Below the pieces are notes generated by a model. It saw nothing but the letters and a program-made list of their open reading frames with translations. It made no database searches and had not been told where the DNA came from. A stretch of 64,000 bases of DNA from contig JAQUSB010000007.1 in NCBI GenBank assembly GCA_028715345.1, positions 2,287 to 66,286 on the forward strand, read 5' to 3'. Below, one piece after another: positions 21,089 through 61,336 of the stretch. A program made the translations under genes and the position numbers. The stretch is from Candidatus Omnitrophota bacterium. Its GTDB lineage: Bacteria; Omnitrophota; Gorgyraeia; 2-01-FULL-45-10. How positions within the stretch are numbered: the first letter of the stretch is position 1; each line of letters starts with the position of its first letter.

Positions 21089-21102
21089 AAAGTATCGTTT
21101 AG

Positions 21103-21178
21103 TGGTGGAGCAGACCGGGTTCGAACCGGCGACCCCCACGTTGCGAACGTGGTGCTCTCCCAACTGAGCTACTGCCCC
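21103..21178 (-). tRNA. tRNA-Ala (anticodon CGC)
   Basis: Hand-folded. Acceptor stem GGGGCAG/CTGCTCC with the G3:U70 alanine identity pair; GCTC/GAGC D-stem; anticodon loop TTCGCAA (anticodon CGC); T-loop TTCGAAC; encoded 3' CCA. 76 nt. Confidence 0.85.
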
Positions 21179-44068: not shown

Positions 44069-45289
44069 TTATGTGCTGTACTCCGAATTTATCGCGACGT
44101 ACTCTTTCGAGAGATCGCATGTCCAGGCCGTCGCCTTATATCTTCCGTTCTTCAGGTCTACGGCTATCTTAACATTATTACCTTTAAAGAATTTGCGCGC
44201 TTTCTCTTTATCGTAACTTTTGGCGATCGCGCCGTTAGACAAAGCTTTCATCGCGCCTAAGTATATATCGGTCTTGTCGGGATCGAAACTGACCCCCGCC
44301 GCGCCGCATGCGGCCGCCACCCTGCCCCAATTCGGGTCTTCCCCGAAGACGGCGCATTTCAAAAGGTTCGAAGCAGATATCTTCCGCGCCGCCAGCTTCG
44401 CATCGAGCAAAGACTTGGCGCCCCTGACCTCTATCTCGATGAATTTTGTAGCTCCCTCGCCGTCCCGCGCAAGCATCTTCGCAAGCTCGATCGAGAGGAA
44501 TTTTAAACCTTCCACGAATTTTTTATACTCCTGATTTTTCTTCGTTATCTTTTTATTCCCCGCCATACCGTTGGCAAGGACAAAACAAGTGTCATTTGTG
44601 CTCATATCGCCGTCGACCGAGACCATATTGAACGAATCCCCGATAGATTCGCTCAAGGCCTCTTCGAGCATCCTCTTCGATATGGCAGCATCGGTCGCGA
44701 TAAAACATAACAGAGTAGCGTGTTTTTCGGCCTTCATTACCGGGTAGATCATGCCCACACCCTTACAGGCGCCGCCGATCGTCACCACTGACGAGCCCAA
44801 CTTCACCTTTACCGCGAACTCTTTAGCGACGGTGTCGGTCGTCATTATCGTCTCGGCGAATGTCCTGCCGCCCGCCTTCGATAAGCCGTCCACAAGCGGC
44901 GCGATATTGTTTCTGATCTTCTTTATCGGCAAAAGCTCACCGATTATACCGGTGGAAGCCACGAGGACTTCGCGCCTGTCGAGCCACAGCTTCTTCGCCG
45001 CGCACTCCGTCATGGCTACGGCGATCGCGTCGCCTGCCTTACCGTTCGCGCAATTGGCGTTGCCGCTATTGGCGATGACGGCCTGGTGCATCTTATTCTT
45101 TATATGAAGTTTGCTCACCTTTACCGGCGATGCCGCGAAATTGTTCGTCGTGAAAGCGGCAGCGGCGACGCAAGGGACCTCGGAATACAGGAGCGCCAGG
45201 TCTTTATTGCCGGATTTTTTTATCCCGGCCTTTACGCCGTTGGCTACGAAACCTTTAGCCGTAGCTACTCCGCCTTTCACTATTATCAT
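44069..45289 (-). CDS. argJ: bifunctional glutamate N-acetyltransferase/amino-acid acetyltransferase
   Basis: ArgJ family, including the ATML-type self-cleavage region. Confidence 0.85.
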   Translation of the reverse strand: MIIVKGGVATAKGFVANGVKAGIKKSGNKDLALLYSEVPCVAAAAFTTNNFAASPVKVSKLHIKNKMHQAVIANSGNANCANGKAGDAIAVAMTECAAKKLWLDRREVLVASTGIIGELLPIKKIRNNIAPLVDGLSKAGGRTFAETIMTTDTVAKEFAVKVKLGSSVVTIGGACKGVGMIYPVMKAEKHATLLCFIATDAAISKRMLEEALSESIGDSFNMVSVDGDMSTNDTCFVLANGMAGNKKITKKNQEYKKFVEGLKFLSIELAKMLARDGEGATKFIEIEVRGAKSLLDAKLAARKISASNLLKCAVFGEDPNWGRVAAACGAAGVSFDPDKTDIYLGAMKALSNGAIAKSYDKEKARKFFKGNNVKIAVDLKNGRYKATAWTCDLSKEYVAINSEYST

Positions 45290-46302
45290 AAAAGCCCTTC
45301 CGTCTCGTCGAAACCGGCCATTATATTCATATTTTGTATTGCCTGTCCCGCCGCGCCTTTGGTCAGATTATCGATACACGAGATGACTATCAAAGTTTCA
45401 CCCGTTACCTTCAGGCCGATATCGCAGTAATTGGTGCAAACGACGTCTTTTATCTGCGGGAATTTACCCTCGTCCGAGATCCTGACGAACGGCTTTCCTT
45501 TATAGAAATCCTTATATATATCCAGAACGGCTTTAGTGTCGAGCTTCTTATTCAAACGCAAATATATCGTCGAGAGTATTCCGCGGTTCATCGGTATAAG
45601 GTGCGGGGTAAAAACTATATTGATCGCCCCGCCGGAAACCGCGGACAATATCTTATTTATCTCGGGTGAATGCTGGTGTTCGTTCACCTTATACGCCTTC
45701 AAATTCTCGTTCACTTCGCAGAAAGACAAAGCGCTGTCGGGTTTGCGCCCGGCGCCGCTCGTCCCGGATTTCGAATCCGCTATTATGTTCTTGGGGTCTA
45801 TGGCCTTTGCTTTAAGCGCAGGCGCAATGCCCAATATTACGCTCGTTGGGTAACAGCCGGGGTTGGCGATAAGTTTTGCCTTTTTTATATCGCTGTAATA
45901 AAGTTCCGGCAGGCCGTAAACTGCTTTGGAAAGATTCGCCTTATCTTTATGCTCCGCGCCGTACCACATCTTATAAACGTCCGGCGCCAGCCTGTAATCT
46001 GCGCTTATGTCTATGGCCGACTTTCCCGCCTTCATAAATACAGGGACGATATCCATCGCGGCTTTGTGCGGCAGGCCGAGAAAAACAAAGTCAACATTCT
46101 TAGCTATCGCTTCCGGGTCGATCTTTTTGCATACGAGGTCGATCCGGCCTTTGAACTCCGGGAATACCGCGGAAATAGGTTCATCTGTATCGGAAAAACG
46201 CGCGAGCTCGGTTATTTTAACGTCCTTGTGCCGTAAAAGTATCCGTATCGCTTCCTGGCCGGCATAACCTGTTGCGCCCAATATTCCAACTTTTATCATC
46301 AC
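45286..46302 (-). CDS. argC: N-acetyl-gamma-glutamyl-phosphate reductase
   Basis: GATGYAG Rossmann fold. Overlaps argJ by 4 nt. Confidence 0.85.
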   Translation of the reverse strand: MMIKVGILGATGYAGQEAIRILLRHKDVKITELARFSDTDEPISAVFPEFKGRIDLVCKKIDPEAIAKNVDFVFLGLPHKAAMDIVPVFMKAGKSAIDISADYRLAPDVYKMWYGAEHKDKANLSKAVYGLPELYYSDIKKAKLIANPGCYPTSVILGIAPALKAKAIDPKNIIADSKSGTSGAGRKPDSALSFCEVNENLKAYKVNEHQHSPEINKILSAVSGGAINIVFTPHLIPMNRGILSTIYLRLNKKLDTKAVLDIYKDFYKGKPFVRISDEGKFPQIKDVVCTNYCDIGLKVTGETLIVISCIDNLTKGAAGQAIQNMNIMAGFDETEGLL

Positions 46303-46347
46303 TCTCCCCCTGCAATTTTAAAACCTCGTCGGGAACATTAACTTATA

Positions 46348-46410
46348 GTAAAATAAAAAACCTATCGTGTCAACTAAATTCGCCGTCGGCGGAAGCCACG
46401 ATAGGTTTTT
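46348..46410 (-). terminator. intrinsic terminator after rpsI (stem AAACCTATCGTG/CACGATAGGTTT with a nested GC palindrome in the loop, then TTTTATTTT)
   Basis: Seen directly. Confidence 0.55.
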
Positions 46411-46432
46411 GAAACTCGTCGGAGATGTCTTT

Positions 46433-46828
46433 TTATCTCTTAGTGAACTGGAATCGCCTCCTGGCTCGCTTTCTGCCGTATTTTTTGCGCTCCCTGGCCC
46501 TGGAATCTCTTGTCAGGAACCCGGCTTTCTTGATGTCGGCTTTTAGGCCTGAATCCATCTTTACAAGCGCCCTGGCAATACCCTGTTTAACCGCGCCGGC
46601 CTGGCCGCTTAATCCGCCGCCGTTCGCGTTTATGAATATGTCCACCTTAGTTTCGAGCTTGGCCGTTTCGAGCGGCTGCATTATGACAAGCCTGTTGGAC
46701 TCCCTGGGGAAATAAGCATTGAAAGGCCTGCCGTTCACGGTGACCTTCCCTTCGCCTGTCATTAGCCTAACGCGCGCTATGGAATTTTTGCGCCGTCCGG
46801 TCGCTATATATTGAACTTTCTCTGCCAT
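46433..46828 (-). CDS. rpsI: 30S ribosomal protein S9
   Basis: MAEKVQYIATGRRK ... C-terminal KYGRKRARRRFQFTKR. Confidence 0.9.
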   Translation of the reverse strand: MAEKVQYIATGRRKNSIARVRLMTGEGKVTVNGRPFNAYFPRESNRLVIMQPLETAKLETKVDIFINANGGGLSGQAGAVKQGIARALVKMDSGLKADIKKAGFLTRDSRARERKKYGRKRARRRFQFTKR

Positions 46829-46843
46829 TATCCGTTCCTTTTA

Positions 46844-47275
46844 TTAGTCTATCTTTAGAATTTTAGGCTGCTGAGCCTGGTGCGGATGCACATCCCCGGG
46901 ATAAACCCTGAGTTTCTTCAGGAGTTTGGCTCCGAGCTTACTTTTCGGGAGCATACCGTGGACCGCGTGCCTTATGGCGCGTTCCGGGCTCTTCTTCATA
47001 ACGGTCGCCAGCGTTTCGCTGTTCAAGCCGCCCGGGTATGCGGAATACCGTAAATATTGCTTCTGCCCCAGCTTATTGCCGGTAGTCTTTATCAATTTAG
47101 CGTTTATAACGATCACTTCGTCGCCAGTATCCTGGTGGGGAGAATATATCACTTTATTCTTTCCCATGAGGATAGAAGCAACTTTGGCCGACAGCCTGCC
47201 GAGGACTTTATCCTTGGCATCTACCACGTGCCATGTCTTCTGAATATCTTTTTCTTTCGCAATGTAGGTTTTCAT
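46844..47275 (-). CDS. rplM: 50S ribosomal protein L13
   Basis: I place the start at MKTYIAKEKDIQKTWHVVDA (ATG 47275). The track's extra 21 N-terminal codons translate the terminator hairpin of the upstream giant gene. Confidence 0.85.
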   Translation of the reverse strand: MKTYIAKEKDIQKTWHVVDAKDKVLGRLSAKVASILMGKNKVIYSPHQDTGDEVIVINAKLIKTTGNKLGQKQYLRYSAYPGGLNSETLATVMKKSPERAIRHAVHGMLPKSKLGAKLLKKLRVYPGDVHPHQAQQPKILKID

Positions 47276-47380: not shown

Positions 47381-50300
47381 TTATGCCGCCGTCCAGAATT
47401 CGCGCATTATGAGCTTCAGGCGCTCTATTGCGCTCGCGGTCAATTCCGAAAGCAGTCTTATGGCGCTCTTCGAGCAGAACTCTATCCTGTCAATGGTGTC
47501 CTGCGCCGTCTCATTCTCTTTCTCGGGCAATCTTTGTAATAGAACGTTGGCATCGCCTTTGTAGCAGCCCTTGAGAATATTCCTGAAAAACATGCCGATC
47601 CACGGATTTTTTTCATCCGATTCGTACAAACGCGCGCAGATAGCCCGCATGAACAGGCTGGACTGATAAAACGTCTTTTCCGCAGATCTCATATTATTAT
47701 AGCCCTCGGGAAGTTCAAAACCGAGATCCCGGACTTCTTTAAAAAGGGCCGGTTCTTCTTTCACCAGGGATCTCACTATATCCTTCGAGCGCTCTCCCGT
47801 AATGACAATTATTCTTTTTACATGGTCTTCGGGTTTGGCGGAACGGAGAAATTTTCTAAGCCCCTCTTTATCCTGGAACGCCTTACAACCCACGATATCG
47901 TCTCTGCCGATCTTTTTCCTTATATCCCTTAATGCGTCGGCCATCGTTTCCGTAGTGCCTACCTCATCCTGGAGCACCAGCGCCTCCACCCTGTCCTGAT
48001 GGAAAATATTGATCGTCTGCCAGATGTTGAATACATCCTTACGGCTTAAGGTCATACTTCCGGGGCCAAGATGCCTGCCTATCCGCGCTTTCACGATCTC
48101 TTCAGCGCCTTCCTTTATTTCGGTAATGAGCGGATGGCTTTCCAGCGCCTTCATGGCAGCGTCTCTTCTCTGCCAGAATTCATCCGAGCCGATACCGGTA
48201 GAGGTTGTGCCTGCCGATGCCAGAACAAGTTCAGGCTCGTTCTGCTCAACCGCCGGCGGTTGCACTTTATCATCACCTGGCGTAGCCGGCTCAATGCCGT
48301 TCTGCGCTTCAAGGTTTTGAGACGATCCTTCATCTGTAGACGCCAGGTCTTCCACCGCCCCTGTTCCGACGAGATCAGCCGGCGGCATGTATCTGTCATC
48401 GTAGCCTGCGCCGAATATGTCATCGAGCCTCGTCCAGTCCAGCATCGGTTCCTCTGCCTCTTCCTGCGCTCTTTGATATAAACTTCTGACTATAAAGATC
48501 ATGAAATCTACCCGCGGAGCCGCATCTTCTTCCGTAAGATATACTGACCGGGCATAACACGTTATAAGCGCCTGCCTCGCTTCTATTTTTTCGGAATCGG
48601 ATGTCTGAGGGTTTGTAAGCACTTGCATTTTTTCCAAGAAGAGAGACCTATTGCTTTGTATATCATATACCATGAATATGCCAAAAAGACGCAGGGCAAC
48701 GTCTCTTACCGTAACATTGGATGACGGTAACGCATAAAATAGCCCCACCGTGTTTTCTTTAAGCCATCCCATAAAATCACTTAAAGTCATGTCAGCAGGA
48801 ATTTCTACATTATCTCGCATCGAAGCAACAAACTCTTCTTCCGGGCTAAGGATAATGTTCACAGGCTGTATATCGGCTTCACGCTGTCCGCCTAATACCC
48901 CAGCCGGGAATATTATTTCACCGTCATCCGTTACTGTCACTTTAAACGCATCGCCTGTCACATAATGCGGAGTGGTATTTTCCCCGATAGTTACATAATA
49001 TTCGCCTTCTGTCGGCGTCGGACGGACCGTTATACTTTCTACCGGCACCCCTTTATCTTTGGCAACGGCTTTTTTGATATTGTCAAAAGGTGCGCCAGCC
49101 TCCGCCTTTTTCGCGTCCCGGGCTGTAACAGCCATAGCCGCGATCGCCGCGCCTATTCCTGCGCCGTCTTTGGCCTCGAAGACTTCGAGCTTCTGGACAT
49201 AAATACCTCCGAATATATCGGCCAGAGCTTCTTTCATCATTCTGATATATCCAGGATAATTTAAAAGCGGCCCGTCCACCGCATATGCGTATTCGCCGGT
49301 CGGTTGATAAGTTCCTTCTCTCTGCATAACGATACCTGCGAATGTAGCGGCACCCAGCCGAGCGGATCTTGACATGATATTATGCGCAATGGTCCTGACT
49401 TCCTTAACATCGTCATCGGTCGGGTCCTGTATCCCCATATCCGTAAAGTATTTCTTCAAACCATCCATATTTCCGGCCAGCCATAACGCCTCGATCTCGC
49501 TCATATTCCTGGCAGTGAAACCTTTATAACTATCCTTCTCATAATCGTGATCAGTGAAGGTAGCGGGCAGAGCGCCGTTATGATTAGCAAACAAATTATT
49601 TGCGCGAACCTCTTTTTCGAGCATGAGCCCGAACAGAGGCCCTACATATTTGCCGGAAAGCCTCTTTTCTAAAGGATGGACACCCGGATTCGAGGAAAGC
49701 CTGTCCACTTCGGCATCCAACCTCATCGCCTCAAGCTTAGCGCTACCTACTTCCAGAAGATTAAACGCTCCGGATTCCAGATTGACCGAATTTCCGTTCT
49801 CGTCAAGCATATCCGTATTATGGCCTGTGGCGAATACGCCTCCGGCGATCGTTCTGGGATTCAAAAACATGCCGTAGAGCTTCACTGTTTTTGTATCATT
49901 ACAGATTTTGACGATCTTAATGTTGATCTTATCGGTCTGCAGGCCTGCTTTCGCCAGAGCTTCATTCATAAGCGCCGCGACATCCTGCCCCATTATCCCG
50001 TCGAAATTGTAGCCTTTGACATTACACTCCGGCGTAATGGCATTTTCGCTTGTTCCTACTTTTTTCGTAGCGAAAGAAAATGTGAAGCCGGTGCTTAAAT
50101 CCCCCGACAGATTATATTTATCTGCGAAAAATCTTATCTTTTCCGCGATAAAGTCAAAGAGCTGTTTCCCCGCGCTTGCGCGTATTTCCTCCGGCACAGC
50201 GAAAGTAAGCTCGTGCTTTTTTTCGAGCGTATGGTTACCTTTAAATTCGACAAGACCTACGCGGAAATTTGTCCCTCCCAGGTCTAAAAATAGGGTCTCG

Positions 50301-53300
50301 CCCTTCTCGTCGCCCGTTAGCCTTTCTGTCTCCGTAACTATATTGGAGAGCGACGACTGATTTGTGCCGCGGAGCATAACGTCTCCCCTGAAATTCATCG
50401 CGATCTGTTTCAATGTAGTTACAGCTATCGCGAAAATGTTCGGCTTTACTCCGCCGAAGTTCGCGCGGTTCTCCGTAACTAACGCGATAAGCTCTTCCGC
50501 GCTTTTTTCCGCCGATTTTCTATCCCCGTTTATGAAGATTATCTCAAGAAATCGATCTACTATCGCGTTGAAAGCTTCAGCCTTTACTTGTTCCGACGCA
50601 TCAAGCCTTACATACATGCTTAATGCTTCTACCAAAACTGCATCCGCATTAGCCTCCTCGCCTATAGGTTTATTCGTGGCTATGCAAACGGCTTGCCTGA
50701 TCTTTCTCTCCGCGCCCTCGCGCATTTCGGCAGTTTCTAATTCGGTTATCTCGCGATTAAGCCTTGCTATATCGGCCCCCAGCTTCTCTTTTTCGGCTTC
50801 CGAGATAGAGGGCTCATCTTTACGGCCTGTCTGTTTTCTTATAAGTTCGGCCCTTTGAGCTCTTAGCTGGCTTATCCTGGCGCCGAGCGTTTTGGCGGGT
50901 TCGGCAGGCGCGCGGACAGCGGCATCGTTCGCCGGGGCTTTATCCGATAACGCAGCATTAAATGCGGTGAGTTGTCCGGTCAATCCGTCATCGGTTAATG
51001 CTTTTCTCACGGCCGCTATATTCGCTTCCTCACCCGGCAATTCCGCTACTTTAATATCTTTCGCGGCGGCAACCGGGTCGATTTTTGCAAGCTCGATAAT
51101 ATCGACTATCGCCTTCCCTCCGCCCATAGGAGGCCGTTGAGTGCCGGTAAATTCGTCTTTAGACTTATTTATTAATTCCCACGCTCTGGATATTCCATCC
51201 GCATATAAGCCCACTTCACCTATCTGTAAAAAGAGGCATCTGGCGATCTTATCGGCCAACTTCTCATCCGTGTCGATACCGCCCTTTAGCCTCGCGGCAA
51301 ACGCTTCGCGCACTGCCTGATTCTGATGCAGACTGTCGATAACAGCTTTCTCTCTGTCACTGAGCAATGCATAATAGGAAGCGGGATGGAAATCGACGGT
51401 TTTATTTGCCCCTTTATTATCAACGACTACTCTGTAATCGGGATTGCCGTCCAAAGCTGCCAATACTTGCTCAGGTCTCCATATAGCGGGGTCGATGTAA
51501 ACAGCGTCGGCGCCATAACTGCGGGAATGATCACGTAGTTTCCCGAGCAGCCTCTTCCATATCTCGGGATGATCCCATTGCAATTTAAGCAGCATATTCA
51601 TGGTATGCCTGCCGGGAGCACCGTTAAGCTCGGCCAGATTAAATATATTATTAATACCCAGCGCGGCAAGATCGCGCTTTACCCATTGCTCGTGGATAGG
51701 TAACACGATCGGCCGTGAAAATGCACTACTCTGAGGTATCTGAAAAGTACCTGCACGCAGGGTCAATTCCGGCCCTATATCTACGGAAGAATAGTAAAAT
51801 GCGGTATGCACAACTCCTAACGGACCGCTCCGGTTGACGGCAACGTCATATCGACCCAAAGGAATTTCCCGGATCGCGATAGTAACGTTGTGACTGAAAC
51901 CACGCAAGGCATACCAGCGCGAAGTCTTGCTGAATTTGTCATCCGATACCGAAACAAGCCGCGCAAGTCTTATGAACGAACTGACATCCGGCCCATCCCA
52001 CTCGCCTTTTTCCTCAAGCGCTTGTAGTCTCGCCTTCCATTCGCCCGAGGCGGCGCTCATAGCTTCTTCTCTCATTGCAGGCGTCGAACCTATCCCGCTT
52101 CTTTCGAATATGTCGCGGATCAGATCCCTCACCCTGAACTTTTTTAACTCAGGATATGTAAAGTACCGGAGTGTTGTTTCGCTAAATAAAGCGTCGGGCC
52201 GATTCATCACTAATACCGAAGAACTGCTACTTAATTCCCATATCTTGGATCTCGCATAATCTTGGAATTCGACGTTGATACCTAAGCCGGCAAACCATCT
52301 GCGCAATGATCCAAGATCAAGCTTAACCTCTACTTGATCCGCGGCATGCTGCGCGTAAGCGGCAAGTTCTTCTGCTAACGCCTGCCTTTCGGACGCGATA
52401 CGCTCGGCCGCGTATACTAATCCGGGCAGCCAATCCATGTTTTCCGCGCCAATACGCACTAACCCGCAATCAACGCTATAATAAATACGCTTCCTGACCT
52501 CTTCCGATACTACGCTCCCGGCGTTCACCCTTAAAACTTTTATACCCTTGTCGCTGACGTTGGTGCAGATCTCAAATATCTGCTCACCATTTCTCATATA
52601 TGTCAGGACATCGCCCTCTTTGATAGCATTTGCATCCAAGGGGTATGTTCTGGAGATCGAAAATAAATCGACCAGTAATTTCGTTAATGACGCGAAATCA
52701 TCCCGTACATCTTTAATGCGGGGCCGCAATTTTTCGGGCGTTTCTTTTGCGGTAATATCCGGTAAGAGCGGTAATCCCTCTAGTTCCCTCCCGACCGTAA
52801 GCATAATCTGCGCCGCCGCGGGATTGTTTATTTCGGTCTCCGTAAGAGATTTTCTTTGCCGCCTCGTTCCTTCCGCCAGGGTTTTAATTTTAGCGTGAAA
52901 TTCTTTTCTTGCCGATACTAATTCAGCGGCGCTTCTAGCGATCTCAGATAACCTATTTACATTTTCGCCGCTTATATTTACAAGCTGCCAGTTGTCAAAA
53001 TCATGCCGCTCCGCGTCCATCGAAATAATGTCTTCCGCGGTAATTTGTAATATCTTCAGCCGCCCATCCTGATCGGCCGCAAGGCAAATGCAAAACTCCC
53101 GCTTTTCGACCCTGCCGTTGGTTAAAATATCTCCTGCCCTGATAATAGAGTTCTCCGGGATCGGCTGAGATCGCCCTGAATAGAAAAGTACCCGATATAA
53201 ATATCTGACAAGCGGATCCCGCCTTTCCAACATTTCGGCAACCCAGCTCTTTAATTCATCGGGATCCACACCGCTATATTCTTCATATGAATTCGGCAAA

Positions 53301-53779
53301 AACGCTAATCCCGACAATGAGTTACCGAGAGCCGCCGCTATGCCGGCTATATCTGAAGCCTGCGTTATCTGCTTCATCAGCGTATCAAATTCAGCCAATT
53401 CAGGACTGCCTTCCGCGTACTCGCTCCTGAACGCACGATGCTTACTGCCATCCCTGTCTGCGGCGGAAACAAGATATATGATCGCTTCCCTGGGCGTAGG
53501 CCGTTTGCGTTCGAAATCGAGCAAACGATGATCCCCGGATACGACAATGGAAAAAGTGTAGCGGGGATCGCCGTTTAAAGCAGCTATTATATTCTCGGCT
53601 CTGAATAAATCCGGGACAAAACGAATTGCATCAACTCCCCTGTCAATATTTAGCACACTCAATGTCCCGATCAAATGATCCCATACGAGAGGATGATTAA
53701 GTTCGATACCCATGAGAGCGACAATAGCATCCGACTGTCTGTCGGATAGGAATATATATGATCGATGCCTGCCACCCAA
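47381..53779 (-). CDS. downstream ORF of a frameshift-split giant gene (2,132 aa), with an embedded hexokinase-family domain
   Basis: Track ORF; its start in this frame is a TTG. LFLDLGGTNFRVGL at 50250..50290 ... GFTFSFATKK ... IVKICNDTKTV, with a C-terminal lobe down to about 49.1 kb. Second copy of the SFIRLARL..SDD.FSKTSRWYA module at about 51.25-51.94 kb. Confidence 0.75.
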   Translation of the reverse strand: MGGRHRSYIFLSDRQSDAIVALMGIELNHPLVWDHLIGTLSVLNIDRGVDAIRFVPDLFRAENIIAALNGDPRYTFSIVVSGDHRLLDFERKRPTPREAIIYLVSAADRDGSKHRAFRSEYAEGSPELAEFDTLMKQITQASDIAGIAAALGNSLSGLAFLPNSYEEYSGVDPDELKSWVAEMLERRDPLVRYLYRVLFYSGRSQPIPENSIIRAGDILTNGRVEKREFCICLAADQDGRLKILQITAEDIISMDAERHDFDNWQLVNISGENVNRLSEIARSAAELVSARKEFHAKIKTLAEGTRRQRKSLTETEINNPAAAQIMLTVGRELEGLPLLPDITAKETPEKLRPRIKDVRDDFASLTKLLVDLFSISRTYPLDANAIKEGDVLTYMRNGEQIFEICTNVSDKGIKVLRVNAGSVVSEEVRKRIYYSVDCGLVRIGAENMDWLPGLVYAAERIASERQALAEELAAYAQHAADQVEVKLDLGSLRRWFAGLGINVEFQDYARSKIWELSSSSSVLVMNRPDALFSETTLRYFTYPELKKFRVRDLIRDIFERSGIGSTPAMREEAMSAASGEWKARLQALEEKGEWDGPDVSSFIRLARLVSVSDDKFSKTSRWYALRGFSHNVTIAIREIPLGRYDVAVNRSGPLGVVHTAFYYSSVDIGPELTLRAGTFQIPQSSAFSRPIVLPIHEQWVKRDLAALGINNIFNLAELNGAPGRHTMNMLLKLQWDHPEIWKRLLGKLRDHSRSYGADAVYIDPAIWRPEQVLAALDGNPDYRVVVDNKGANKTVDFHPASYYALLSDREKAVIDSLHQNQAVREAFAARLKGGIDTDEKLADKIARCLFLQIGEVGLYADGISRAWELINKSKDEFTGTQRPPMGGGKAIVDIIELAKIDPVAAAKDIKVAELPGEEANIAAVRKALTDDGLTGQLTAFNAALSDKAPANDAAVRAPAEPAKTLGARISQLRAQRAELIRKQTGRKDEPSISEAEKEKLGADIARLNREITELETAEMREGAERKIRQAVCIATNKPIGEEANADAVLVEALSMYVRLDASEQVKAEAFNAIVDRFLEIIFINGDRKSAEKSAEELIALVTENRANFGGVKPNIFAIAVTTLKQIAMNFRGDVMLRGTNQSSLSNIVTETERLTGDEKGETLFLDLGGTNFRVGLVEFKGNHTLEKKHELTFAVPEEIRASAGKQLFDFIAEKIRFFADKYNLSGDLSTGFTFSFATKKVGTSENAITPECNVKGYNFDGIMGQDVAALMNEALAKAGLQTDKINIKIVKICNDTKTVKLYGMFLNPRTIAGGVFATGHNTDMLDENGNSVNLESGAFNLLEVGSAKLEAMRLDAEVDRLSSNPGVHPLEKRLSGKYVGPLFGLMLEKEVRANNLFANHNGALPATFTDHDYEKDSYKGFTARNMSEIEALWLAGNMDGLKKYFTDMGIQDPTDDDVKEVRTIAHNIMSRSARLGAATFAGIVMQREGTYQPTGEYAYAVDGPLLNYPGYIRMMKEALADIFGGIYVQKLEVFEAKDGAGIGAAIAAMAVTARDAKKAEAGAPFDNIKKAVAKDKGVPVESITVRPTPTEGEYYVTIGENTTPHYVTGDAFKVTVTDDGEIIFPAGVLGGQREADIQPVNIILSPEEEFVASMRDNVEIPADMTLSDFMGWLKENTVGLFYALPSSNVTVRDVALRLFGIFMVYDIQSNRSLFLEKMQVLTNPQTSDSEKIEARQALITCYARSVYLTEEDAAPRVDFMIFIVRSLYQRAQEEAEEPMLDWTRLDDIFGAGYDDRYMPPADLVGTGAVEDLASTDEGSSQNLEAQNGIEPATPGDDKVQPPAVEQNEPELVLASAGTTSTGIGSDEFWQRRDAAMKALESHPLITEIKEGAEEIVKARIGRHLGPGSMTLSRKDVFNIWQTINIFHQDRVEALVLQDEVGTTETMADALRDIRKKIGRDDIVGCKAFQDKEGLRKFLRSAKPEDHVKRIIVITGERSKDIVRSLVKEEPALFKEVRDLGFELPEGYNNMRSAEKTFYQSSLFMRAICARLYESDEKNPWIGMFFRNILKGCYKGDANVLLQRLPEKENETAQDTIDRIEFCSKSAIRLLSELTASAIERLKLIMREFWTAA
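49080..50290 (-). other. hexokinase-family (ASKHA) sugar-kinase domain embedded in the giant protein
   Basis: LDLGGTNFRV is the canonical hexokinase phosphate-1 motif. GFTFSF and a VNDT-like (ICNDT) motif follow in the right order. Confidence 0.6.
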
Positions 53780-56700
53780 AGATCCTGCGCAACCAATTGC
53801 TCACGCATAGATAAGGTAGAGTTCTCATTGAAATAATCTGTATCGGAAAGTTGCGAAGCTCCTGCCTGGGCTTTGGCTAGTTCAGGTTCGATAGAATCTG
53901 CTTCGGCGTAAAATACAAAATCATACGGTCTTGCTACGCTATAACGCCCTACGCAAACCTGCTTATTATTGGTGACAGGTATATTTCTCACCGATATAAT
54001 TACGCAGCTATCGATACCGTCGAAAGCATACCAGCGCGAGGTCTTACTGAATGTATCGTCGGACACAGCTGTAAGCCGTGCAAGCCTTATAAAGGAAATG
54101 ACGTCTGCCGCTTCCCAGCGAGGCTTATTCTCAAGCTCAGCCAATTGCCTATGCGCCGACTCTGCCGCGGATACTTTATCACCTCTACGAACGTCTTCGG
54201 TCGTCTGCACTTCAGCTAAAAGATCCCGTGCTTCCTGTGTCAATTCTGACAAATGGTCAAGTTTGTCACCGCTTACATGTACCACTTTCGTTTCCCTGGG
54301 GCCATCGTAATTATGACGTTCTGCACCCATCGGAATGAGTTTATACTGACCGACGGCGACCACGCTTATATGCCCGCCGCTGACCTCGGTGCAAATGTGA
54401 AACTCCGGGCCTTCGTCCATATTTATTTCCAGAATATCTCCCTTATTGATAGGAGTTCCGCTATTAAGAGGAGATGATTTCGAAGACGAGAGTAATTTAT
54501 ATACTGAGCTTGTCAGCGAGACTCGCTCACCCTGGTCGTTGTCAGGAAAACGTGATAAGCCCTCTAATGCCTGCCCGAGGCCTATCGTCATCCGGGTTAT
54601 ATCCAGGTCTTCGCGAGCGGTTTCATCTATATTGTAATGCTTTAAAACATCTTTCCTGCTCACGCCTACGGTTTTCCACGGCGGAGTCGGAAGGTCGGTG
54701 TTTTTATCATCTTTTAAATATGTGTGCTTATTATTGCCGCTTATTCCGTAAACAGTCTTCTCTTCTTCGGTGCGTATCCAGTAATGGGATATCGCGCCGG
54801 CGTCGATCCAACGGGGCTCGATGATAACATTATCTATCTTAATGGCAAAATGGCGGACGCCGTTTACCTTTGCCAGGCGGTCGCGTTCCTCTAATATGGC
54901 TCTGAAATTCGCCAAAATAAACTCCAGGGTATCTTTATGATGATCGATGACCGCAGGGGTAATTCTTATCTCATCGATATTGTTAAGTTTATGCTTCGCC
55001 GCCCAAATCAGCTCGGACGGAAGCACGATATTTTCATTATTTCTATTGCGAATGCTGTAAGTACCGCTGCCTATTCTTGTGGCTATTTCGTAACCAGATT
55101 CCGACCTCATCGCAGCGGTTTTCAATGAAACATAGATAATACCCCATGCCTGATATCCCGGCTCGGCCATAAATTTACCCAGATTATCCGTCACTGTCTT
55201 GACATCACGCTCAGGGACACGGCGCAATATTTCGCTTCCGAAATTCGCCCCGCTCGCGCGGACGGAAGATATTAAAAGCATCGCCTGGTTAACCGGATCT
55301 GCTACTCCTAATCCCTGTAGACATTCGGCGATAAGCACTGCGGCATGGGCTTTCTCAGCGTCTTCTTTAGCAGTGACTAACCGTGCAATGCTGTTTAGAA
55401 GAACGGCGTCGAGTCTGTCCCCTCTCCACCCTGCATTCATGGCCCATTCGTCGACACCCTCTTTTATCCTATTCTGTCTCTGGGCAGTCAAACCGCTCCA
55501 ATAGCCGGCCTGATCCTCGTCGGCAACTGCCGTAACGGCACTTTCGACTGGCTTGCCTGTCCCGGCGAATCCGAAATCATTGGCAGTTCCAGATATATAC
55601 TTTAAAACCAAATCTACCGTTACTTTCTCGGACTTATTCGGGTCGAGCCCCAGCTCACGCAGACGGCCTTTTATAAGCAGCATGGCGGCATTTTTATCGT
55701 CATCTGTCTTGGCCTTTGTCAGCCTCGCTATATTATCCAAAAGGGTTGCGTCATACAGCCATGCTTTCTTTATATCACGGCACTCTTTAAGACTGGCCAC
55801 TATTTTATCATGCGCCCGTTTAGATAAAGACATCCAATATTTAAAGTCGTTCTGCCGTGCTCTGGGGCGTATACGCTCGTGCAGAATTTCTTCGAACATT
55901 TCAATCCGTTTATATAAAGGTATCCAATATTTAAAGTCGCTCTGCTGTGCTCTGATGCGCATACGCTCGCGTATAATTCTGTCGAGCATTTCAAGTTGGT
56001 CAATAGAGAAAACTCTCGGCCAGTTGGCAGATTCTCTAGTCATAGGTTCGAGGTAGGTTAAAAAAGTGCGAAGAAGTATGGCGCCGCTGGGATTTTCAAC
56101 AACCAATCTTTCTATTGCTCTTCTATCTTCCGCTCTGAGCGCTTCGCCCATCCTTTTCTCAAAGTCTGCCGTAAAAGCAGTGCCTTTTTTCGAAGCGCCT
56201 GATTCCACACTAGCAGTCAGTTTGGCTGGATCATCCACTCTAAATAACAAGCTGCCGTTAGGGCCCTTTTCGCTAAGCTCTCTTATTACCCTGTATCTTT
56301 TTTCCGGATGGAAGGCCAGATCCAGAAGATCCCTTCGCGCAGTCTGGAGAGCGGACTTCCTGTTTTCCGCCGGAGCATCGAATCTAAATTCCGGATGCTC
56401 TTTCACAAACTTCGCATATCCTTTATCGAGATAATCAGCTACGCTGAAAGGCTCGTTTTGTAATTCGGGTGTATGCGCAAGTACTATAAGCGCTGCCTCC
56501 GCGCTTTTGCCGGGGCGCGTACGCGGCTTGCCTGCCGACGGCTCGTCCAATATGATGCGCGTATGGCCCAATAATTTGAGCCGAAACTGGGTGTATCGCC
56601 ACTTTAAAACTATATATTCCGCATATGCGCGCGTTTTCGCTATTAATTTAAATGTCCTCTTTCCTTTATATATTCTTTCCCATGCCGCTAAAAACCTCCC

Positions 56701-58557
56701 CGCTTCCGCAAAAACATCGCGTTCTCCTTCGTCATAGGCCGCTTCCTTAATAATATTAATAATTGCCTTATCCGTATAATCAGCGATCAGCTTTTTATGC
56801 TCTCTCACGTAATCCGCTAATCTGGGCAATGCTTCTCTATACGCCGGCGAGTACCTGTCTACCATTTTATAAGCGGTTGCCAAATATTTTTTTATGAAAT
56901 TCACATAAGGATCTGAAGCGTTAGAACCGTCTCTTTGTAATGTATCGCGACTTCTCTCAAGCATTAAATACTCTAGGGAGCCTTCCGGTATCCGCGTTTT
57001 AAGCGCCTTATCCAGATCTTCTATAAGCGCCTCTACTTCAGAACTTCGTTTTTCGACAGATGGCTGAGCTGCTTTTATTCTATCAATATCCGCCCCCGAC
57101 GCAGGTCTGACCACGCCGGTCGCAATAGACTGATATGTAAAATTATGATAGCGATTGGTCAGATCTTCTCTCACACGAATCGTATCGCCGTGTTTTTCGG
57201 ACACATACCCTATGCTTTCCCTGCCACCTTGTGTAATAATTACGGGCGAGCCAGTTTTGATGTTCTTGAATACAGATTCCGGCGATTGCTGGCGTCTGCT
57301 CTTGGTCGGGCTTTTGCCGCCGTCGTTTTTCGCGGGAAAACCGAAATTCGCCGCCGGGAAAGAAAGGTCCGATATAATAGTATCGGCCAGGAAACGCGCC
57401 GATATCGGACCTAAATTTGTTAATTCATGTAAACGGCTGGCCACAAGCCCCATTGCCTGCTCTTTTCTATCATACTTCTCAGCTTTTATTCTTTGCGCTA
57501 TATAATTCAGAAGGACGGCATCGCGGCTTAATTGCAAACCATCGACATTATAATCTCTGCCGAGAAGGAGCGGTCTTTGCATATTTGCAAGATATGCCAG
57601 TATCCTATCCCGCGACTGCCGGGACAATTCCGGCCAATAGTCATGCCCGGCTACTACAGCCGACATCCCGGTGGTATCTTGAGCGGCGGCTTTAGCGCGT
57701 ACTGCGCGCTCTCCATAATACTTGTCATTCATTAAAAGCGCTAATTGCTTGGCTTTCTGCCGTAAAGCGGGGTCACCCTTAATGCTTTTAAACTCATCGT
57801 TAAGCTTCAGTTTCGCGGCTTCATCGTTTTCGAATATCCAGTCGATCCTTCCTGCCAATATGTTGTTGTTATAACGCACCATATTGGAATTAGCGTATGA
57901 GTGTAAAAACCACATCCATACGGCGTCACTGAGCCAGTCTTCCTGCGGGTCATCAGCGGCAACTCTCTTTGTTACGCGTTTCAATAATTCAGACGCGGCG
58001 GAAGTTGAGCCCTGTCCTTGTCTGGGCGAATTCTTAGGGTCTTTAAAATCGATCATTATATCGTTTTTCGCAAGACCATCGAACATAGCCACGAAATTCT
58101 CATCGAAGATCACCGTGACCTTACCGCCTGCCTTTGACCTCTTGAATATTGGAAGCACACCCGGCTCCGCATCGGACACATCTCTACGGAGGTCGCCTTT
58201 TATCACTTCTACATTCGATATTCCGGAATCGGCAAGCCTGGATTTAGCTAATGTGAGGAAAGACGGCATTTCCCATCCGGGAGGAGTCTTATCTGTGGTT
58301 GCACCCGGCCTAATCTCGATACCTTCGATAGGCACAAGCCCAGTGCTTGGAATAAAATTTATCGGAAGGACCGCATCAAAATCGACACGAACATGGCTGG
58401 CATTTGCGAGAAGATAATCGGCCATATCGACCATGGCCGCCTGGGTAGGCTCATTTCTCGACCCGGGCATAGGGCTCAGGCCGTAAGCGACGCTGTTAAA
58501 GATAAAGAGTATAGCGACAACTAAAGATATTATCCTGTTCGTCATAGTAATTTTCAT
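53671..58557 (-). CDS. upstream ORF of the frameshift-split giant gene (1,628 aa); signal peptide; repeat-module protein
   Basis: MKITMTNRIISLVVAILFIFNSVAYG signal peptide. The C-terminus (SFIRLARLTAVSDDTFSKTSRWYA ... MLLSLSW) is the first half of a ~230-aa module whose second half (NHPLVWDHLIGTL ... AALNGDPRY) is read in the overlapping frame of 47381..53779. Confidence 0.75.
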   Translation of the reverse strand: MKITMTNRIISLVVAILFIFNSVAYGLSPMPGSRNEPTQAAMVDMADYLLANASHVRVDFDAVLPINFIPSTGLVPIEGIEIRPGATTDKTPPGWEMPSFLTLAKSRLADSGISNVEVIKGDLRRDVSDAEPGVLPIFKRSKAGGKVTVIFDENFVAMFDGLAKNDIMIDFKDPKNSPRQGQGSTSAASELLKRVTKRVAADDPQEDWLSDAVWMWFLHSYANSNMVRYNNNILAGRIDWIFENDEAAKLKLNDEFKSIKGDPALRQKAKQLALLMNDKYYGERAVRAKAAAQDTTGMSAVVAGHDYWPELSRQSRDRILAYLANMQRPLLLGRDYNVDGLQLSRDAVLLNYIAQRIKAEKYDRKEQAMGLVASRLHELTNLGPISARFLADTIISDLSFPAANFGFPAKNDGGKSPTKSRRQQSPESVFKNIKTGSPVIITQGGRESIGYVSEKHGDTIRVREDLTNRYHNFTYQSIATGVVRPASGADIDRIKAAQPSVEKRSSEVEALIEDLDKALKTRIPEGSLEYLMLERSRDTLQRDGSNASDPYVNFIKKYLATAYKMVDRYSPAYREALPRLADYVREHKKLIADYTDKAIINIIKEAAYDEGERDVFAEAGRFLAAWERIYKGKRTFKLIAKTRAYAEYIVLKWRYTQFRLKLLGHTRIILDEPSAGKPRTRPGKSAEAALIVLAHTPELQNEPFSVADYLDKGYAKFVKEHPEFRFDAPAENRKSALQTARRDLLDLAFHPEKRYRVIRELSEKGPNGSLLFRVDDPAKLTASVESGASKKGTAFTADFEKRMGEALRAEDRRAIERLVVENPSGAILLRTFLTYLEPMTRESANWPRVFSIDQLEMLDRIIRERMRIRAQQSDFKYWIPLYKRIEMFEEILHERIRPRARQNDFKYWMSLSKRAHDKIVASLKECRDIKKAWLYDATLLDNIARLTKAKTDDDKNAAMLLIKGRLRELGLDPNKSEKVTVDLVLKYISGTANDFGFAGTGKPVESAVTAVADEDQAGYWSGLTAQRQNRIKEGVDEWAMNAGWRGDRLDAVLLNSIARLVTAKEDAEKAHAAVLIAECLQGLGVADPVNQAMLLISSVRASGANFGSEILRRVPERDVKTVTDNLGKFMAEPGYQAWGIIYVSLKTAAMRSESGYEIATRIGSGTYSIRNRNNENIVLPSELIWAAKHKLNNIDEIRITPAVIDHHKDTLEFILANFRAILEERDRLAKVNGVRHFAIKIDNVIIEPRWIDAGAISHYWIRTEEEKTVYGISGNNKHTYLKDDKNTDLPTPPWKTVGVSRKDVLKHYNIDETAREDLDITRMTIGLGQALEGLSRFPDNDQGERVSLTSSVYKLLSSSKSSPLNSGTPINKGDILEINMDEGPEFHICTEVSGGHISVVAVGQYKLIPMGAERHNYDGPRETKVVHVSGDKLDHLSELTQEARDLLAEVQTTEDVRRGDKVSAAESAHRQLAELENKPRWEAADVISFIRLARLTAVSDDTFSKTSRWYAFDGIDSCVIISVRNIPVTNNKQVCVGRYSVARPYDFVFYAEADSIEPELAKAQAGASQLSDTDYFNENSTLSMREQLVAQDLWVAGIDHIYSYPTDSRMLLSLSWVSNLIILSYGII

Positions 58558-61334: not shown

Positions 61335-61336
61335 TT

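What the first reader, a model, noticed from the sequence alone, without database searches (positions are those of the whole stretch)
49080..50290. Hexokinase-like domain embedded in the middle of a secreted giant repeat protein
The segment translating to LFLDLGGTNFRVGLVEF ... GFTFSFATKK ... IVKICNDTKTV matches the hexokinase phosphate-1, sugar-binding and connect motifs in the correct order. It sits at about residues 1150-1570 of the 2,132-aa ORF and is flanked by unrelated sequence. The N-terminal half of the gene has a signal peptide. A sugar-kinase fold in an apparently exported giant protein is unusual. It could be a repurposed ASKHA ATPase or a carbohydrate-binding, catalytically dead module.
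Basis: partly seen in the sequence, partly recalled or inferred. Interest (0 to 1): 0.6.

Follow-up and report, generated by a model that had tools for sequence, protein, structure and literature searches.

The report
Hexokinase domain inside Omnitrophota long protein
A complete but unusually diverged sugar-kinase (hexokinase) domain sits in the fast-evolving middle of a ~3,700-residue protein of an uncultured Omnitrophota bacterium; this adds one more case to the already reported habit of this phylum of embedding metabolic enzymes in very long proteins.

Summary
Residues 1116-1549 of the 2,132-aa minus-strand ORF (window 49133-50434) match Pfam Hexokinase_1 and Hexokinase_2 (E 4e-32 and 3e-30). 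They model as a two-lobed hexokinase fold (pLDDT 83, TM 0.73-0.81 to solved hexokinases). The catalytic Asp, the Lys, the phosphate-1 loop and 6 of 7 glucose contacts are kept. However, 13 of 48 positions invariant in other hexokinases are changed, against 0-3 in any reference.

The contig is from a Candidatus Omnitrophota MAG. The hexokinase-bearing ORF has no signal peptide. The signal-like segment heads the preceding 1,628-aa ORF, which is in another frame. A 230-aa repeat runs through the junction, and a related genome has one 3,385-aa gene at this site, so the two ORFs are halves of one ~3,730-aa gene.

Syntenic loci in related genomes carry giant genes that share only a short N-terminal piece and a ~235-aa C-terminal domain (36-40% identity, against 73-95% for neighbouring housekeeping proteins). 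Two such lineages lack the hexokinase domain and one lacks the gene. The domain is therefore lineage-specific cargo in a hypervariable gene.

Two preprints already describe enzyme domains, hexokinase included, in long Omnitrophota proteins. I rate this a new member of a known kind.

The parts
49133..50434 (-). Complete hexokinase-family domain (aa 1116-1549 of the 2,132-aa ORF). Hexokinase_1 lies at 49892-50434 and Hexokinase_2 at 49133-49789.
   Evidence: Pfam E 3.7e-32 and 3.4e-30. PDB HK2 E 9e-69. AF2 model pLDDT 82.7, pTM 0.82. Foldseek TM 0.73-0.81 to KlHxk1 and human glucokinase. Coordinates checked.
47381..53779 (-). Downstream ORF p2 (2,132 aa from TTG; annotated in GenBank as MDD5428079.1, 2,110 aa from the ATG at 53713). 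It is the C-terminal half of the long gene and contains the hexokinase domain. It has no signal peptide or TM segment.
   Evidence: No purine-rich Shine-Dalgarno-like tract lies before the ATG at 53713, unlike most genes of the window.
53671..58557 (-). Upstream ORF p1 (1,628 aa; MDD5428080.1), the N-terminal half of the long gene.
   Evidence: It shares repeat modules with p2.
58477..58557 (-). Signal-peptide-like N-terminus MKITMTNRIISLVVAILFIFNSVAYG|LSP. It has K2 and R8, then a 17-residue hydrophobic core, then A-x-G.
   Evidence: It is the only hydrophobic segment in p1+p2 (Kyte-Doolittle 19-residue window, 2.34). The sequence was read directly. No dedicated signal-peptide predictor was available.
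53700..53716 (-). Frame change separating p1 and p2. Homology to repeat copy 2 switches from the p1 frame (…MLLSLSW) to the p2 frame (…NHPLVWDHLIG) here.
   Evidence: tblastn of module C copy 2: frame -2 up to ~53710, then frame -1 from ~53716. No slippery heptamer and no homopolymer of 4 or more in the overlap. A related genome has a single uninterrupted 3,385-aa ORF at this site.
53510..54186 (-). Repeat module C, copy 1 (~230 aa). It spans the p1/p2 junction.
   Evidence: 37% identity, E 5e-30 to copy 2. Alignment A2. p1 was the only significant hit (E 1.3e-26) of an exhaustive search of 1.84 billion representatives with p2 aa 23-1100.
51386..52072 (-). Repeat module C, copy 2.
52286..54603 (-). 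Three copies of repeat module B (~150-170 aa each, at 54106-54603, 52835-53353 and 52286-52813).
   Evidence: blastp self-comparison, E 1e-12 to 1e-7. Coordinates.
55237..57639 (-). Three copies of repeat module A (~100 aa each, at 57337-57639, 55570-55860 and 55237-55524).
57715..57933 (-). N-terminal piece (aa 209-281 of p1) conserved in the syntenic 3,385-aa protein of a related genome.
   Evidence: 39% identity, E 2e-13 to the L004 giant.
47384..48085 (-). Conserved C-terminal domain (~235 aa) ending …LKLIMREFWTAA*. It is shared by the syntenic giant genes of five lineages. Its function is unknown.
   Evidence: E 5e-39 to 7e-44 against L004, L010, L014 and L017. Alignment A3 has 44 invariant columns. 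No PDB relative, best E 0.15.

Best explanation
The segment encodes a complete hexokinase-family (ASKHA) domain. It was captured from the lineage of stand-alone bacterial hexokinases and now sits as lineage-specific cargo in the hypervariable middle of a ~3,730-residue Omnitrophota long protein.

That protein has a Sec-type signal-like N-terminus, several families of internal repeats and a conserved C-terminal domain of unknown function. In this assembly a frame change cuts it into two ORFs.

The kinase core is intact: the phosphate-1 loop, the catalytic Asp, Lys, two Asn, two Glu, and the phosphate-2 and adenosine glycines. The most likely activity is therefore still binding of a hexose and ATP and transfer of phosphate. 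The domain is evolving under altered constraint, with 13 of 48 universal positions changed, so substrate preference or efficiency has probably shifted.

Shown: domain identity, fold, residue conservation, gene architecture, and hypervariability with presence/absence among relatives. Inferred: catalysis, the substrate, where the domain works, and whether the two halves are made as one protein.
For: - **Domain and fold.**
- **Residues.** In an alignment with 19 bacterial and eukaryotic hexokinases, the equivalents of glucokinase D78, G80, G81, T82, N83, R85, T149, S151, K169, N204, D205, T206, T228, G229, N231, E256, E290, D409, G410 and G446 are kept.
- **Origin.** The best per-domain scores are to stand-alone bacterial hexokinases of 450-483 aa, labelled Acidobacteriota and Omnitrophota MAGs. 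GC3 of the domain (0.53) matches its flanks in the same gene (0.50-0.52), so it is not a recent graft or a chimera.
- **One gene.** Repeat module C runs through the ORF junction. The downstream ATG lacks the purine-rich tract seen before most genes. A related genome has a single 3,385-aa ORF at the same site, homologous at both its N- and C-terminal ends.
- **Hypervariable cargo.** Between the HAD hydrolase gene and rplM, related genomes carry one of three states:
  - no gene at all (L007-L009);
  - a giant gene without any Pfam hit (L004; L017, last 1,424 aa);
  - fragments too short to judge.
  The shared C-terminal domain is 36-40% identical while L13, S9, ArgC, ArgJ and ArgB are 73-95% identical.
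- **Long branch.** The domain is 29-32% identical to every hexokinase, whereas bacterial versus eukaryotic hexokinases average 37%.
- **Known phenomenon.** Sugar-metabolism domains, including PF03727 hexokinase (9 copies in one protein) and ROK kinases, occur in very long Omnitrophota proteins.
Against: - **Divergence.** Thirteen of 48 otherwise invariant positions are changed, against 0-3 for any reference sequence left out in turn. The changes include a glucose contact (T168V) and two positions in ATP-binding motifs (G227A in the phosphate-2 GTG, S411P after the adenosine DG). Catalysis could therefore be impaired. The N-terminal half of mammalian hexokinase I is inactive despite keeping most motifs (own knowledge).
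- **Localisation.** If the fused protein follows its signal peptide, the domain would be outside the cytoplasm, where ATP is not normally available.
- **Frame change.** It shows neither a slippery site nor a homopolymer, so it may be a real mutation. In that case the hexokinase half might not be expressed in this strain.
- **No orthologue.** No orthologue carrying the hexokinase domain was found, so purifying selection on it could not be measured.
Confidence: 0.6

Rival explanations
1. The domain is a non-catalytic sugar-binding (pseudo-kinase) module. It is exported with the rest of the protein behind the N-terminal signal peptide and is used to recognise hexose-containing surface glycans of a host or prey cell, without ATP turnover.
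For: - The only hydrophobic segment of the fused protein is an N-terminal signal-like sequence with positive charges on its N-side. This predicts that the remainder is translocated.
- The changes include two positions in ATP-binding motifs (G227A, S411P), while 6 of 7 sugar contacts are kept.
- The domain is a strong outlier in conservation.
- The gene behaves like a rapidly diversifying surface or host-interaction gene.
- Published work reads many long Omnitrophota proteins as extracellular attachment or cell-wall-targeting factors.
Against: - The whole phosphate-1 loop, T228-G229, the catalytic Asp and the DG and G-x-GAA elements are retained. This would not be expected after the long divergence seen (29-32% identity) if nucleotide binding and catalysis were dispensable.
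- No signal-peptide predictor or topology experiment was available.
Confidence: 0.22
2. The frame change is a real, recent mutation. In this strain the long gene is broken, only the N-terminal 1,628-aa product is made, and the hexokinase-bearing half is a very young pseudogene.
For: - The overlap has no slippery heptamer and no homopolymer, so it is neither a typical recoding site nor a typical sequencing error.
- Removing 11 nt (GTATCGAACTT) after the Trp codon restores a gapless alignment to repeat copy 2. This suggests an insertion rather than a miscalled base (and direct reading).
- No Shine-Dalgarno-like tract precedes the downstream ATG.
- The locus is dispensable, because a related genome lacks the gene altogether.
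Against: - A 2,110-codon frame without a single stop cannot persist long without selection, so any inactivation must be very recent.
- Consensus errors at strain-variable sites in metagenome assemblies cannot be excluded without the reads.
- The 11-nt reading rests on only two paralogous repeats at 39% identity.
Confidence: 0.3
3. The 2,110-aa ORF is an independent cytoplasmic protein, either a stable gene split or made by translational coupling. Its hexokinase domain works in ordinary cytoplasmic hexose phosphorylation, tethered to a large scaffold.
For: - GenBank annotates it as a separate CDS.
- It has no signal peptide or TM segment.
- An ATP-dependent kinase makes most sense in the cytoplasm.
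- Only 25 of 176 complete Omnitrophota genomes have a recognisable hexokinase, so embedded copies might supply the function.
Against: - No ribosome-binding-like tract lies before the ATG.
- The ATG lies inside a repeat unit that continues from the upstream ORF.
- The relative has one continuous ORF.
- A housekeeping enzyme would not be expected to be a conservation outlier, nor to be absent from the orthologous gene in relatives.
Confidence: 0.1
4. The hexokinase segment is an assembly chimera that joins an unrelated organism's hexokinase gene into the long ORF.
For: The source is a metagenome-assembled contig.
Against: - The frame is continuous on both sides over 2,132 codons.
- GC and GC3 match the flanks.
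- No database hexokinase is more than about 35% identical over a substantial stretch, so there is no plausible donor.
Confidence: 0.02

Closest known systems
Enzyme-bearing very long proteins of Omnitrophota (West-Roberts et al. 2023, bioRxiv 10.1101/2023.11.21.568195; 2026 preprint 10.64898/2026.06.07.730766)
   Same: Same phylum. The sequence is mostly dark, with internal repeats and a signal peptide or membrane segment at the N-terminus. Recognisable sugar-metabolism enzyme domains are embedded in it: TIM, PGI, FBPase, PGM, aldolase, ROK kinase, and in one protein 9 copies of hexokinase PF03727. The same unresolved question arises of how ATP- or phosphosugar-dependent domains could work outside the cytoplasm. 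Most such proteins are sequence singletons.
   Different: Ours is about 3.7 kAA, well below the 10 kAA and 30 kAA cut-offs of those catalogues. It has one hexokinase domain as its only recognisable domain. It has no SecA-DEAD, C39 peptidase, dockerin or multiple TM helices. It lies among housekeeping genes (truA-HAD | rplM-rpsI-arg operon), not next to secretion or pilus genes.
Stand-alone bacterial hexokinases of the PF00349/PF03727 family (for example the 483-aa 'hexokinase' of an Omnitrophota MAG, P0021, or Sporomusa acidovorans P0088)
   Same: Same two Pfam domains, same fold and the same catalytic residues. These give the best per-domain scores and so are the likely source of the domain.
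   Different: They are 410-480-aa single-domain proteins that are 36-59% identical to each other. Ours is 29-32% identical to all of them, has 13 changes at universally conserved positions and is embedded about 2,700 residues into a long protein.
Regulatory or non-catalytic hexokinase copies (N-terminal half of mammalian hexokinase I; plant hexokinase-like proteins). Comparison from own knowledge, not tested here.
   Same: A hexokinase fold that keeps most motifs while function shifts away from plain catalysis. This is a precedent showing that motif retention does not prove activity.
   Different: Those arose by duplication within dedicated hexokinase genes of eukaryotes. Ours is a single copy fused into an unrelated bacterial long protein.

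Membership tests
Hexokinase family (Pfam PF00349 + PF03727; ASKHA superfamily) | Both Pfam domains present, in N-to-C order, above the gathering thresholds | tested here: met
   112.2 bits (cut-off 24.3) and 105.6 bits (cut-off 24) at aa 1116-1296 and 1331-1549
Hexokinase family (Pfam PF00349 + PF03727; ASKHA superfamily) | Two-lobed hexokinase fold | tested here: met
   AF2 model pLDDT 82.7, pTM 0.82. All of the top 50 Foldseek PDB hits listed are hexokinases or glucokinases, TM 0.70-0.81.
Hexokinase family (Pfam PF00349 + PF03727; ASKHA superfamily) | Phosphate-1 loop LDLGGTNFRV and phosphate-2 T-G | tested here: met
   LDLGGTNFRV is identical. T228 and G229 equivalents are kept, but the preceding G227 is Ala.
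Hexokinase family (Pfam PF00349 + PF03727; ASKHA superfamily) | Catalytic base Asp (glucokinase D205) with N204 | tested here: met
   The motif ICNDT; N1294 and D1295 of the ORF align to N204 and D205
Hexokinase family (Pfam PF00349 + PF03727; ASKHA superfamily) | Full set of glucose-contact residues (glucokinase T168, K169, N204, D205, N231, E256, E290) | tested here: inconclusive
   Six of seven are kept; T168 is Val and the neighbouring W167 is Glu, within a 2-residue longer loop. The residue roles come from own knowledge of glucokinase structures.
Hexokinase family (Pfam PF00349 + PF03727; ASKHA superfamily) | Adenosine motif D-G-S/T and G-x-G-A-A | tested here: inconclusive
   D409 and G410 are kept but S411 is Pro. 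DGAGIGAA replaces DGSGxGAA.
Hexokinase family (Pfam PF00349 + PF03727; ASKHA superfamily) | ATP-dependent hexose phosphorylation | not testable with these tools
   Needs an enzyme assay
Very long / giant proteins of Omnitrophota | Encoded in an Omnitrophota genome | tested here: met
   Exact matches to MDD5428079.1, MDD5428080.1 and neighbours, all labelled Candidatus Omnitrophota bacterium MAG
Very long / giant proteins of Omnitrophota | Length at least 10,000 aa (2026 catalogue) or at least 30,000 aa (2023 study) | tested here: not met
   About 3,730 aa when the two ORFs are joined
Very long / giant proteins of Omnitrophota | Signal peptide and/or TM helices | tested here: met
   One N-terminal signal-like hydrophobic segment, by hydropathy only. 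No dedicated predictor was run.
Very long / giant proteins of Omnitrophota | Metabolic enzyme domain(s) embedded in repeat-containing, otherwise unannotatable sequence | tested here: met
Archaeovorin / dockerin-type giant proteins (West-Roberts et al. 2023) | SecA-DEAD helicase, C39 or S8 peptidase, many TM helices, or dockerin domains | tested here: not met
   No such Pfam hit even at E up to 1, and a single hydrophobic segment

The most novel reading that the evidence does not exclude
The hexokinase domain is exported as part of a diversifying host- or prey-interaction protein and works outside the producer's cytoplasm. It would act either as an ATP-using effector inside the cytoplasm of a host or prey cell (trapping hexose and draining ATP) or as a hexokinase-derived sugar-recognition module. 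The locus would then be a hypervariable cassette site, with conserved N-terminal and 'FWTAA' C-terminal ends, into which different cargo domains are swapped between closely related Omnitrophota.
Probability: 0.2. Interest if true: 0.75.

Novelty: new member of a known kind. Interest (0 to 1): 0.45.

Why it matters
This is a compact and tractable example (3.7 kAA, a single recognisable domain) of a puzzle already raised for the far larger Omnitrophota giants: why are ATP- and phosphosugar-dependent enzyme domains built into signal-peptide-bearing long proteins?

The comparative series found here consists of an empty site, a giant gene without hexokinase and a giant gene with hexokinase, all at one conserved locus. 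The termini are conserved at 36-40% identity while neighbouring genes are 73-95% identical. This shows that such domains can be lineage-specific cargo in a rapidly diversifying gene. It also gives a small domain that could be expressed and assayed to settle whether the embedded enzymes are active. If the domain is active, or is acting outside the cell, this would bear on how these ultra-small, probably host-dependent bacteria interact with other cells.

Tried and rejected
1. **Word-index homology searches.** Searches with the whole 2,110-aa protein and with the C-terminal 563 aa returned nothing but the query itself. This was a false negative for the C-terminal domain: homologues at 36-40% identity were later found by synteny.
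2. **Exhaustive HMMER search.** A search of 1.84 billion representatives with p2 aa 23-1100 found only the upstream ORF (E 1.3e-26) and a weak hit (E 4e-7, 26% identity) to a 4,973-aa Big_13/T9SS protein. I regard that hit as compositional or repeat noise.
3. **Collection scans.** Scans of GTDB genomes with the hexokinase domain, and of JGI metagenomes with p2 and with the module C alignment, found no close relative. They found only stand-alone hexokinases of Clostridia and Sporomusa at 29-30% identity.
4. **Family and structure searches on non-hexokinase segments.** Pfam at E up to 1, NCBIfam, PADLOC, PHROGs and PDB sequence searches gave only noise.
5. **Structure prediction of the C-terminal region.** A single-sequence AlphaFold model of the C-terminal 563 aa was unusable (pLDDT 41), so no fold search was run on it.
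6. **Programmed frameshifting.** Rejected as the simplest reading, because there is no X XXY YYZ heptamer in the overlap.
7. **Assembly chimera.** Rejected.
8. **Supplementary tables.** The supplements of the two preprints held no per-protein hexokinase data.
9. **Source sample.** The source contig of p2 is not on record in the gene-position index, so the sample could not be identified.
Full report
**1. What is at the coordinates**

The window carries a 2,132-codon ORF on the minus strand (47381..53779, called p2 here). It is preceded by a 1,628-codon ORF (53671..58557, called p1) that overlaps it by about 100 nt in another frame. The given coordinates correspond to residues 1164-1567.

- Pfam finds Hexokinase_1 (E 3.7e-32, aa 1116-1296) and Hexokinase_2 (E 3.4e-30, aa 1331-1549) and nothing else in either ORF. 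NCBIfam finds nothing.
- Against PDB sequences the best match is human hexokinase 2 (E 9e-69). Forty-five further hexokinase or glucokinase chains follow.
- An AlphaFold model built on a 20-sequence alignment has pLDDT 82.7 and pTM 0.82. All of its top 50 Foldseek hits in the PDB are hexokinases or glucokinases, with TM 0.70-0.81.

The domain proper spans window 49133-50434.

**2. Is the domain catalytically equipped?**

I aligned the domain with 10 stand-alone bacterial and 9 eukaryotic hexokinases. I then mapped it onto human glucokinase numbering. The glucokinase sequence was recalled from memory and checked against the known positions of T168, K169, N204, D205, N231, E256 and E290.

- **Kept:** D78, G80, G81, T82, N83 and R85 (phosphate-1 loop); T149 and S151; K169; N204, D205 (catalytic base) and T206; T228 and G229; N231; E256; E290; D409 and G410; G446.
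- **Changed:** T168V (a glucose contact), W167E, P153A, G227A, T209V, Y234M, E300P, R303G, S411P (an ATP contact), S445A, L164I and L45T.
- **Counts:** of the 48 columns invariant among the 19 references, the domain keeps 35. When each reference is left out in turn, it departs from the others at only 0-3 such columns.
- **Distance:** the domain is 29-32% identical to every hexokinase, while bacterial and eukaryotic hexokinases average 37% with each other.

The catalytic core is thus intact, which argues against a simply 'dead' module. The domain is nonetheless a long-branch outlier whose constraints have changed. Sequence alone cannot decide whether it is active.

**3. Source of the domain**

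Per-domain scores are highest for stand-alone bacterial hexokinases of 450-483 aa from MAGs labelled Acidobacteriota, Omnitrophota and Lentisphaeria. None of the 120 best hexokinase homologues matches p1 or p2 outside the domain. GC3 of the domain (0.53) equals that of its flanks in the gene (0.50-0.52) and is lower than in neighbouring housekeeping genes (0.58-0.66). The domain is an old resident of this gene. It is neither a recent graft nor an assembly chimera.

**4. The organism and the gene**

Exact look-ups identify the contig as a 67-kb contig of a Candidatus Omnitrophota MAG. The two ORFs are MDD5428080.1 and MDD5428079.1, both annotated 'hypothetical'.

The joined protein has three families of internal repeats:
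- module A, about 100 aa, three copies;
- module B, about 150 aa, three copies;
- module C, about 230 aa, two copies.

Module C copy 1 runs straight through the p1/p2 junction. tblastn shows its homology to copy 2 switching from the p1 frame to the p2 frame at about 53710-53716. The downstream ATG has no purine-rich tract of the kind that precedes most genes in the window, p1 included. p1 and p2 are therefore two halves of one gene of about 3,730 codons.

The overlap has no slippery heptamer and no homopolymer. Deleting 11 nt after the Trp codon restores a gapless alignment to copy 2. The frame change could thus be a real recent indel or a consensus error. Both frames remain open over thousands of codons, so any disruption is very young.

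The only hydrophobic segment in the joined protein is the N-terminal MKITMTNRIISLVVAILFIFNSVAYG|LSP, a Sec-type signal-like sequence. p2 on its own has none.

**5. Everything outside the hexokinase domain is dark**

- Permissive Pfam scans of nine sub-segments gave nothing.
- PDB sequence searches gave nothing.
- PADLOC and PHROGs gave nothing.
- An exhaustive HMMER search of 1.84 billion representatives with p2 aa 23-1100 returned only p1 and one weak, probably spurious repeat-protein hit.
- Scans of genome and metagenome collections found no close relatives.
- A single-sequence model of the C-terminal 563 aa failed, with pLDDT 41.

**6. Comparative genomics through synteny**

I used members of the 90%-identity clusters of ribosomal proteins S9 and L13 to fetch the corresponding loci of related Omnitrophota. 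The surrounding order, leuC-leuD-leuB-asd-truA-HAD | rplM-rpsI-argC-argJ-argB-argD-argF-argG-argH, is conserved. Between the HAD gene and rplM I found these states:

| Loci | State between HAD and rplM | Evidence |
|---|---|---|
| L007-L009 | No gene; a 99-bp spacer | |
| L004-L006 | One uninterrupted 3,385-aa gene with no Pfam hit | |
| L017 | At least 1,424 C-terminal residues of a long gene, no hexokinase | |
| L010-L012, L014/L015 | Contig-end fragments of 417-544 aa, too short to reach where the hexokinase domain would lie | |

All of these long genes share with ours a C-terminal domain of about 235 aa ending …LKLxMxxFWTAA* (E 5e-39 to 7e-44; 44 invariant columns in alignment A3). The L004 protein also shares a roughly 70-aa N-terminal piece, and L017 shares a short repeat. 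The middles are unrelated.

Identity of the shared C-terminal domain is 36-40%. L13, S9, ArgC, ArgJ and ArgB of the same genomes are 73-95% identical to the window's.

The gene is therefore a long-standing but dispensable, hypervariable resident of this locus. The hexokinase domain is cargo found so far only in this lineage. The single ORF in L004, homologous at both ends, independently confirms that p1 and p2 are one gene.

**7. What is already known**

Two preprints describe very long Omnitrophota proteins with embedded sugar-metabolism domains.

- West-Roberts et al. 2023 list TIM, PGI, FBPase, PGM/PMM, aldolase and PPDK domains. They note that these are predicted to be extracellular, while warning that the topology may be wrong.
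- A 2026 preprint catalogues 916 proteins of at least 10 kAA. It reports a 'sugar metabolism' module, ROK kinases in 44 proteins and one protein with nine PF03727 hexokinase copies. It also finds 94% with a signal peptide or TM helices and 80% as sequence singletons. A recognisable hexokinase is present in only 25 of 176 complete genomes.

Our protein fits this kind. It is much shorter, has a single recognisable domain, and lacks the SecA-DEAD, C39, dockerin and multi-TM features.

**8. Most likely mechanism and its rivals**

I commit to the following. A bacterial hexokinase was captured into the variable middle of a Sec-targeted, rapidly diversifying long protein. It retains the machinery for binding hexose and ATP and for phosphoryl transfer, with altered specificity or efficiency (confidence about 0.6 overall). 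Identity and architecture are close to certain. Catalysis is about even odds.

The rivals are as follows; the second can hold together with any of the others.
- An exported non-catalytic sugar-binding module (0.22).
- A very young pseudogene in this strain (0.3).
- An independent cytoplasmic 2,110-aa protein (0.1).
- An assembly chimera (0.02).

The unresolved point is the same as in the literature. If the protein follows its signal peptide, an ATP-dependent kinase ends up where there is no ATP, unless it acts inside another cell.

**9. Verdict**

The feature is real and correctly recognised. It is a new member of a known kind. Interest is moderate (0.45). The added value lies in the comparative series at one locus and in a small, assayable domain.

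Noticed in passing
window 3-10877 (minus strand): A second very long ORF of more than 3,625 codons starts at the ATG at 10877 and runs off the start of the window, so the ORF listing does not show it. It has about a dozen hydrophobic segments by hydropathy scan (some adjacent or overlapping) and an N-terminal signal- or anchor-like segment (MISFITLVAFLANTICYDIAWAG). It has no Pfam hit and no similarity to p1 or p2. Its GC is markedly lower (0.42, GC3 0.41) than the rest of the window.
   Followed up: partly
window 53700-53716: A frame change splits one ancestral gene into the two annotated CDSs MDD5428080.1 and MDD5428079.1. There is no slippery site or homopolymer. Removing the 11 nt GTATCGAACTT would restore the frame and a gapless repeat alignment.
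   Followed up: yes
window 47384-48085; L004 8560-9423; L010 520-1362; L014 790-1632; L017 3412-4272: A conserved, uncharacterised C-terminal domain of about 235 aa always ends in FWTAA-stop. Invariant elements include GPG, YQ, LY and IExLKLxM. It is shared by otherwise unrelated long proteins at the same locus in five lineages and has no PDB or Pfam relative.
   Followed up: partly
L007 9457-9556, L008 5857-5956, L009 1047-1146: Related Omnitrophota genomes (GCA_041643015.1, GCA_041643075.1) have an 'empty site'. The HAD hydrolase gene is followed after 99 bp by rplM, with no long gene, so the long gene is dispensable.
   Followed up: yes
window 47381-58557 versus 43214-47275 and 60336-62398: Both long genes have lower GC3 (0.41-0.53) than the flanking housekeeping genes (0.58-0.66). 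This is consistent with weak codon bias or a different evolutionary regime.
   Followed up: no
window 19592-21178 (minus strand): The mechanical 523-aa ORF, a Memo-like + AMMECR1 fusion, overlaps tRNA-Ala(CGC) at 21103-21178, so its true start must lie further downstream. A 310-aa ORF with no Pfam hit lies immediately downstream (18670-19602), and a radical-SAM/UPF0004 gene lies further downstream at 16630-17955.
   Followed up: no
L017 1-4275: The partial long protein of GCA_964482095.1 carries three copies of a roughly 63-aa repeat. In the window's protein this repeat occurs once (50948-51142), about 170 residues upstream of the hexokinase domain.
   Followed up: no
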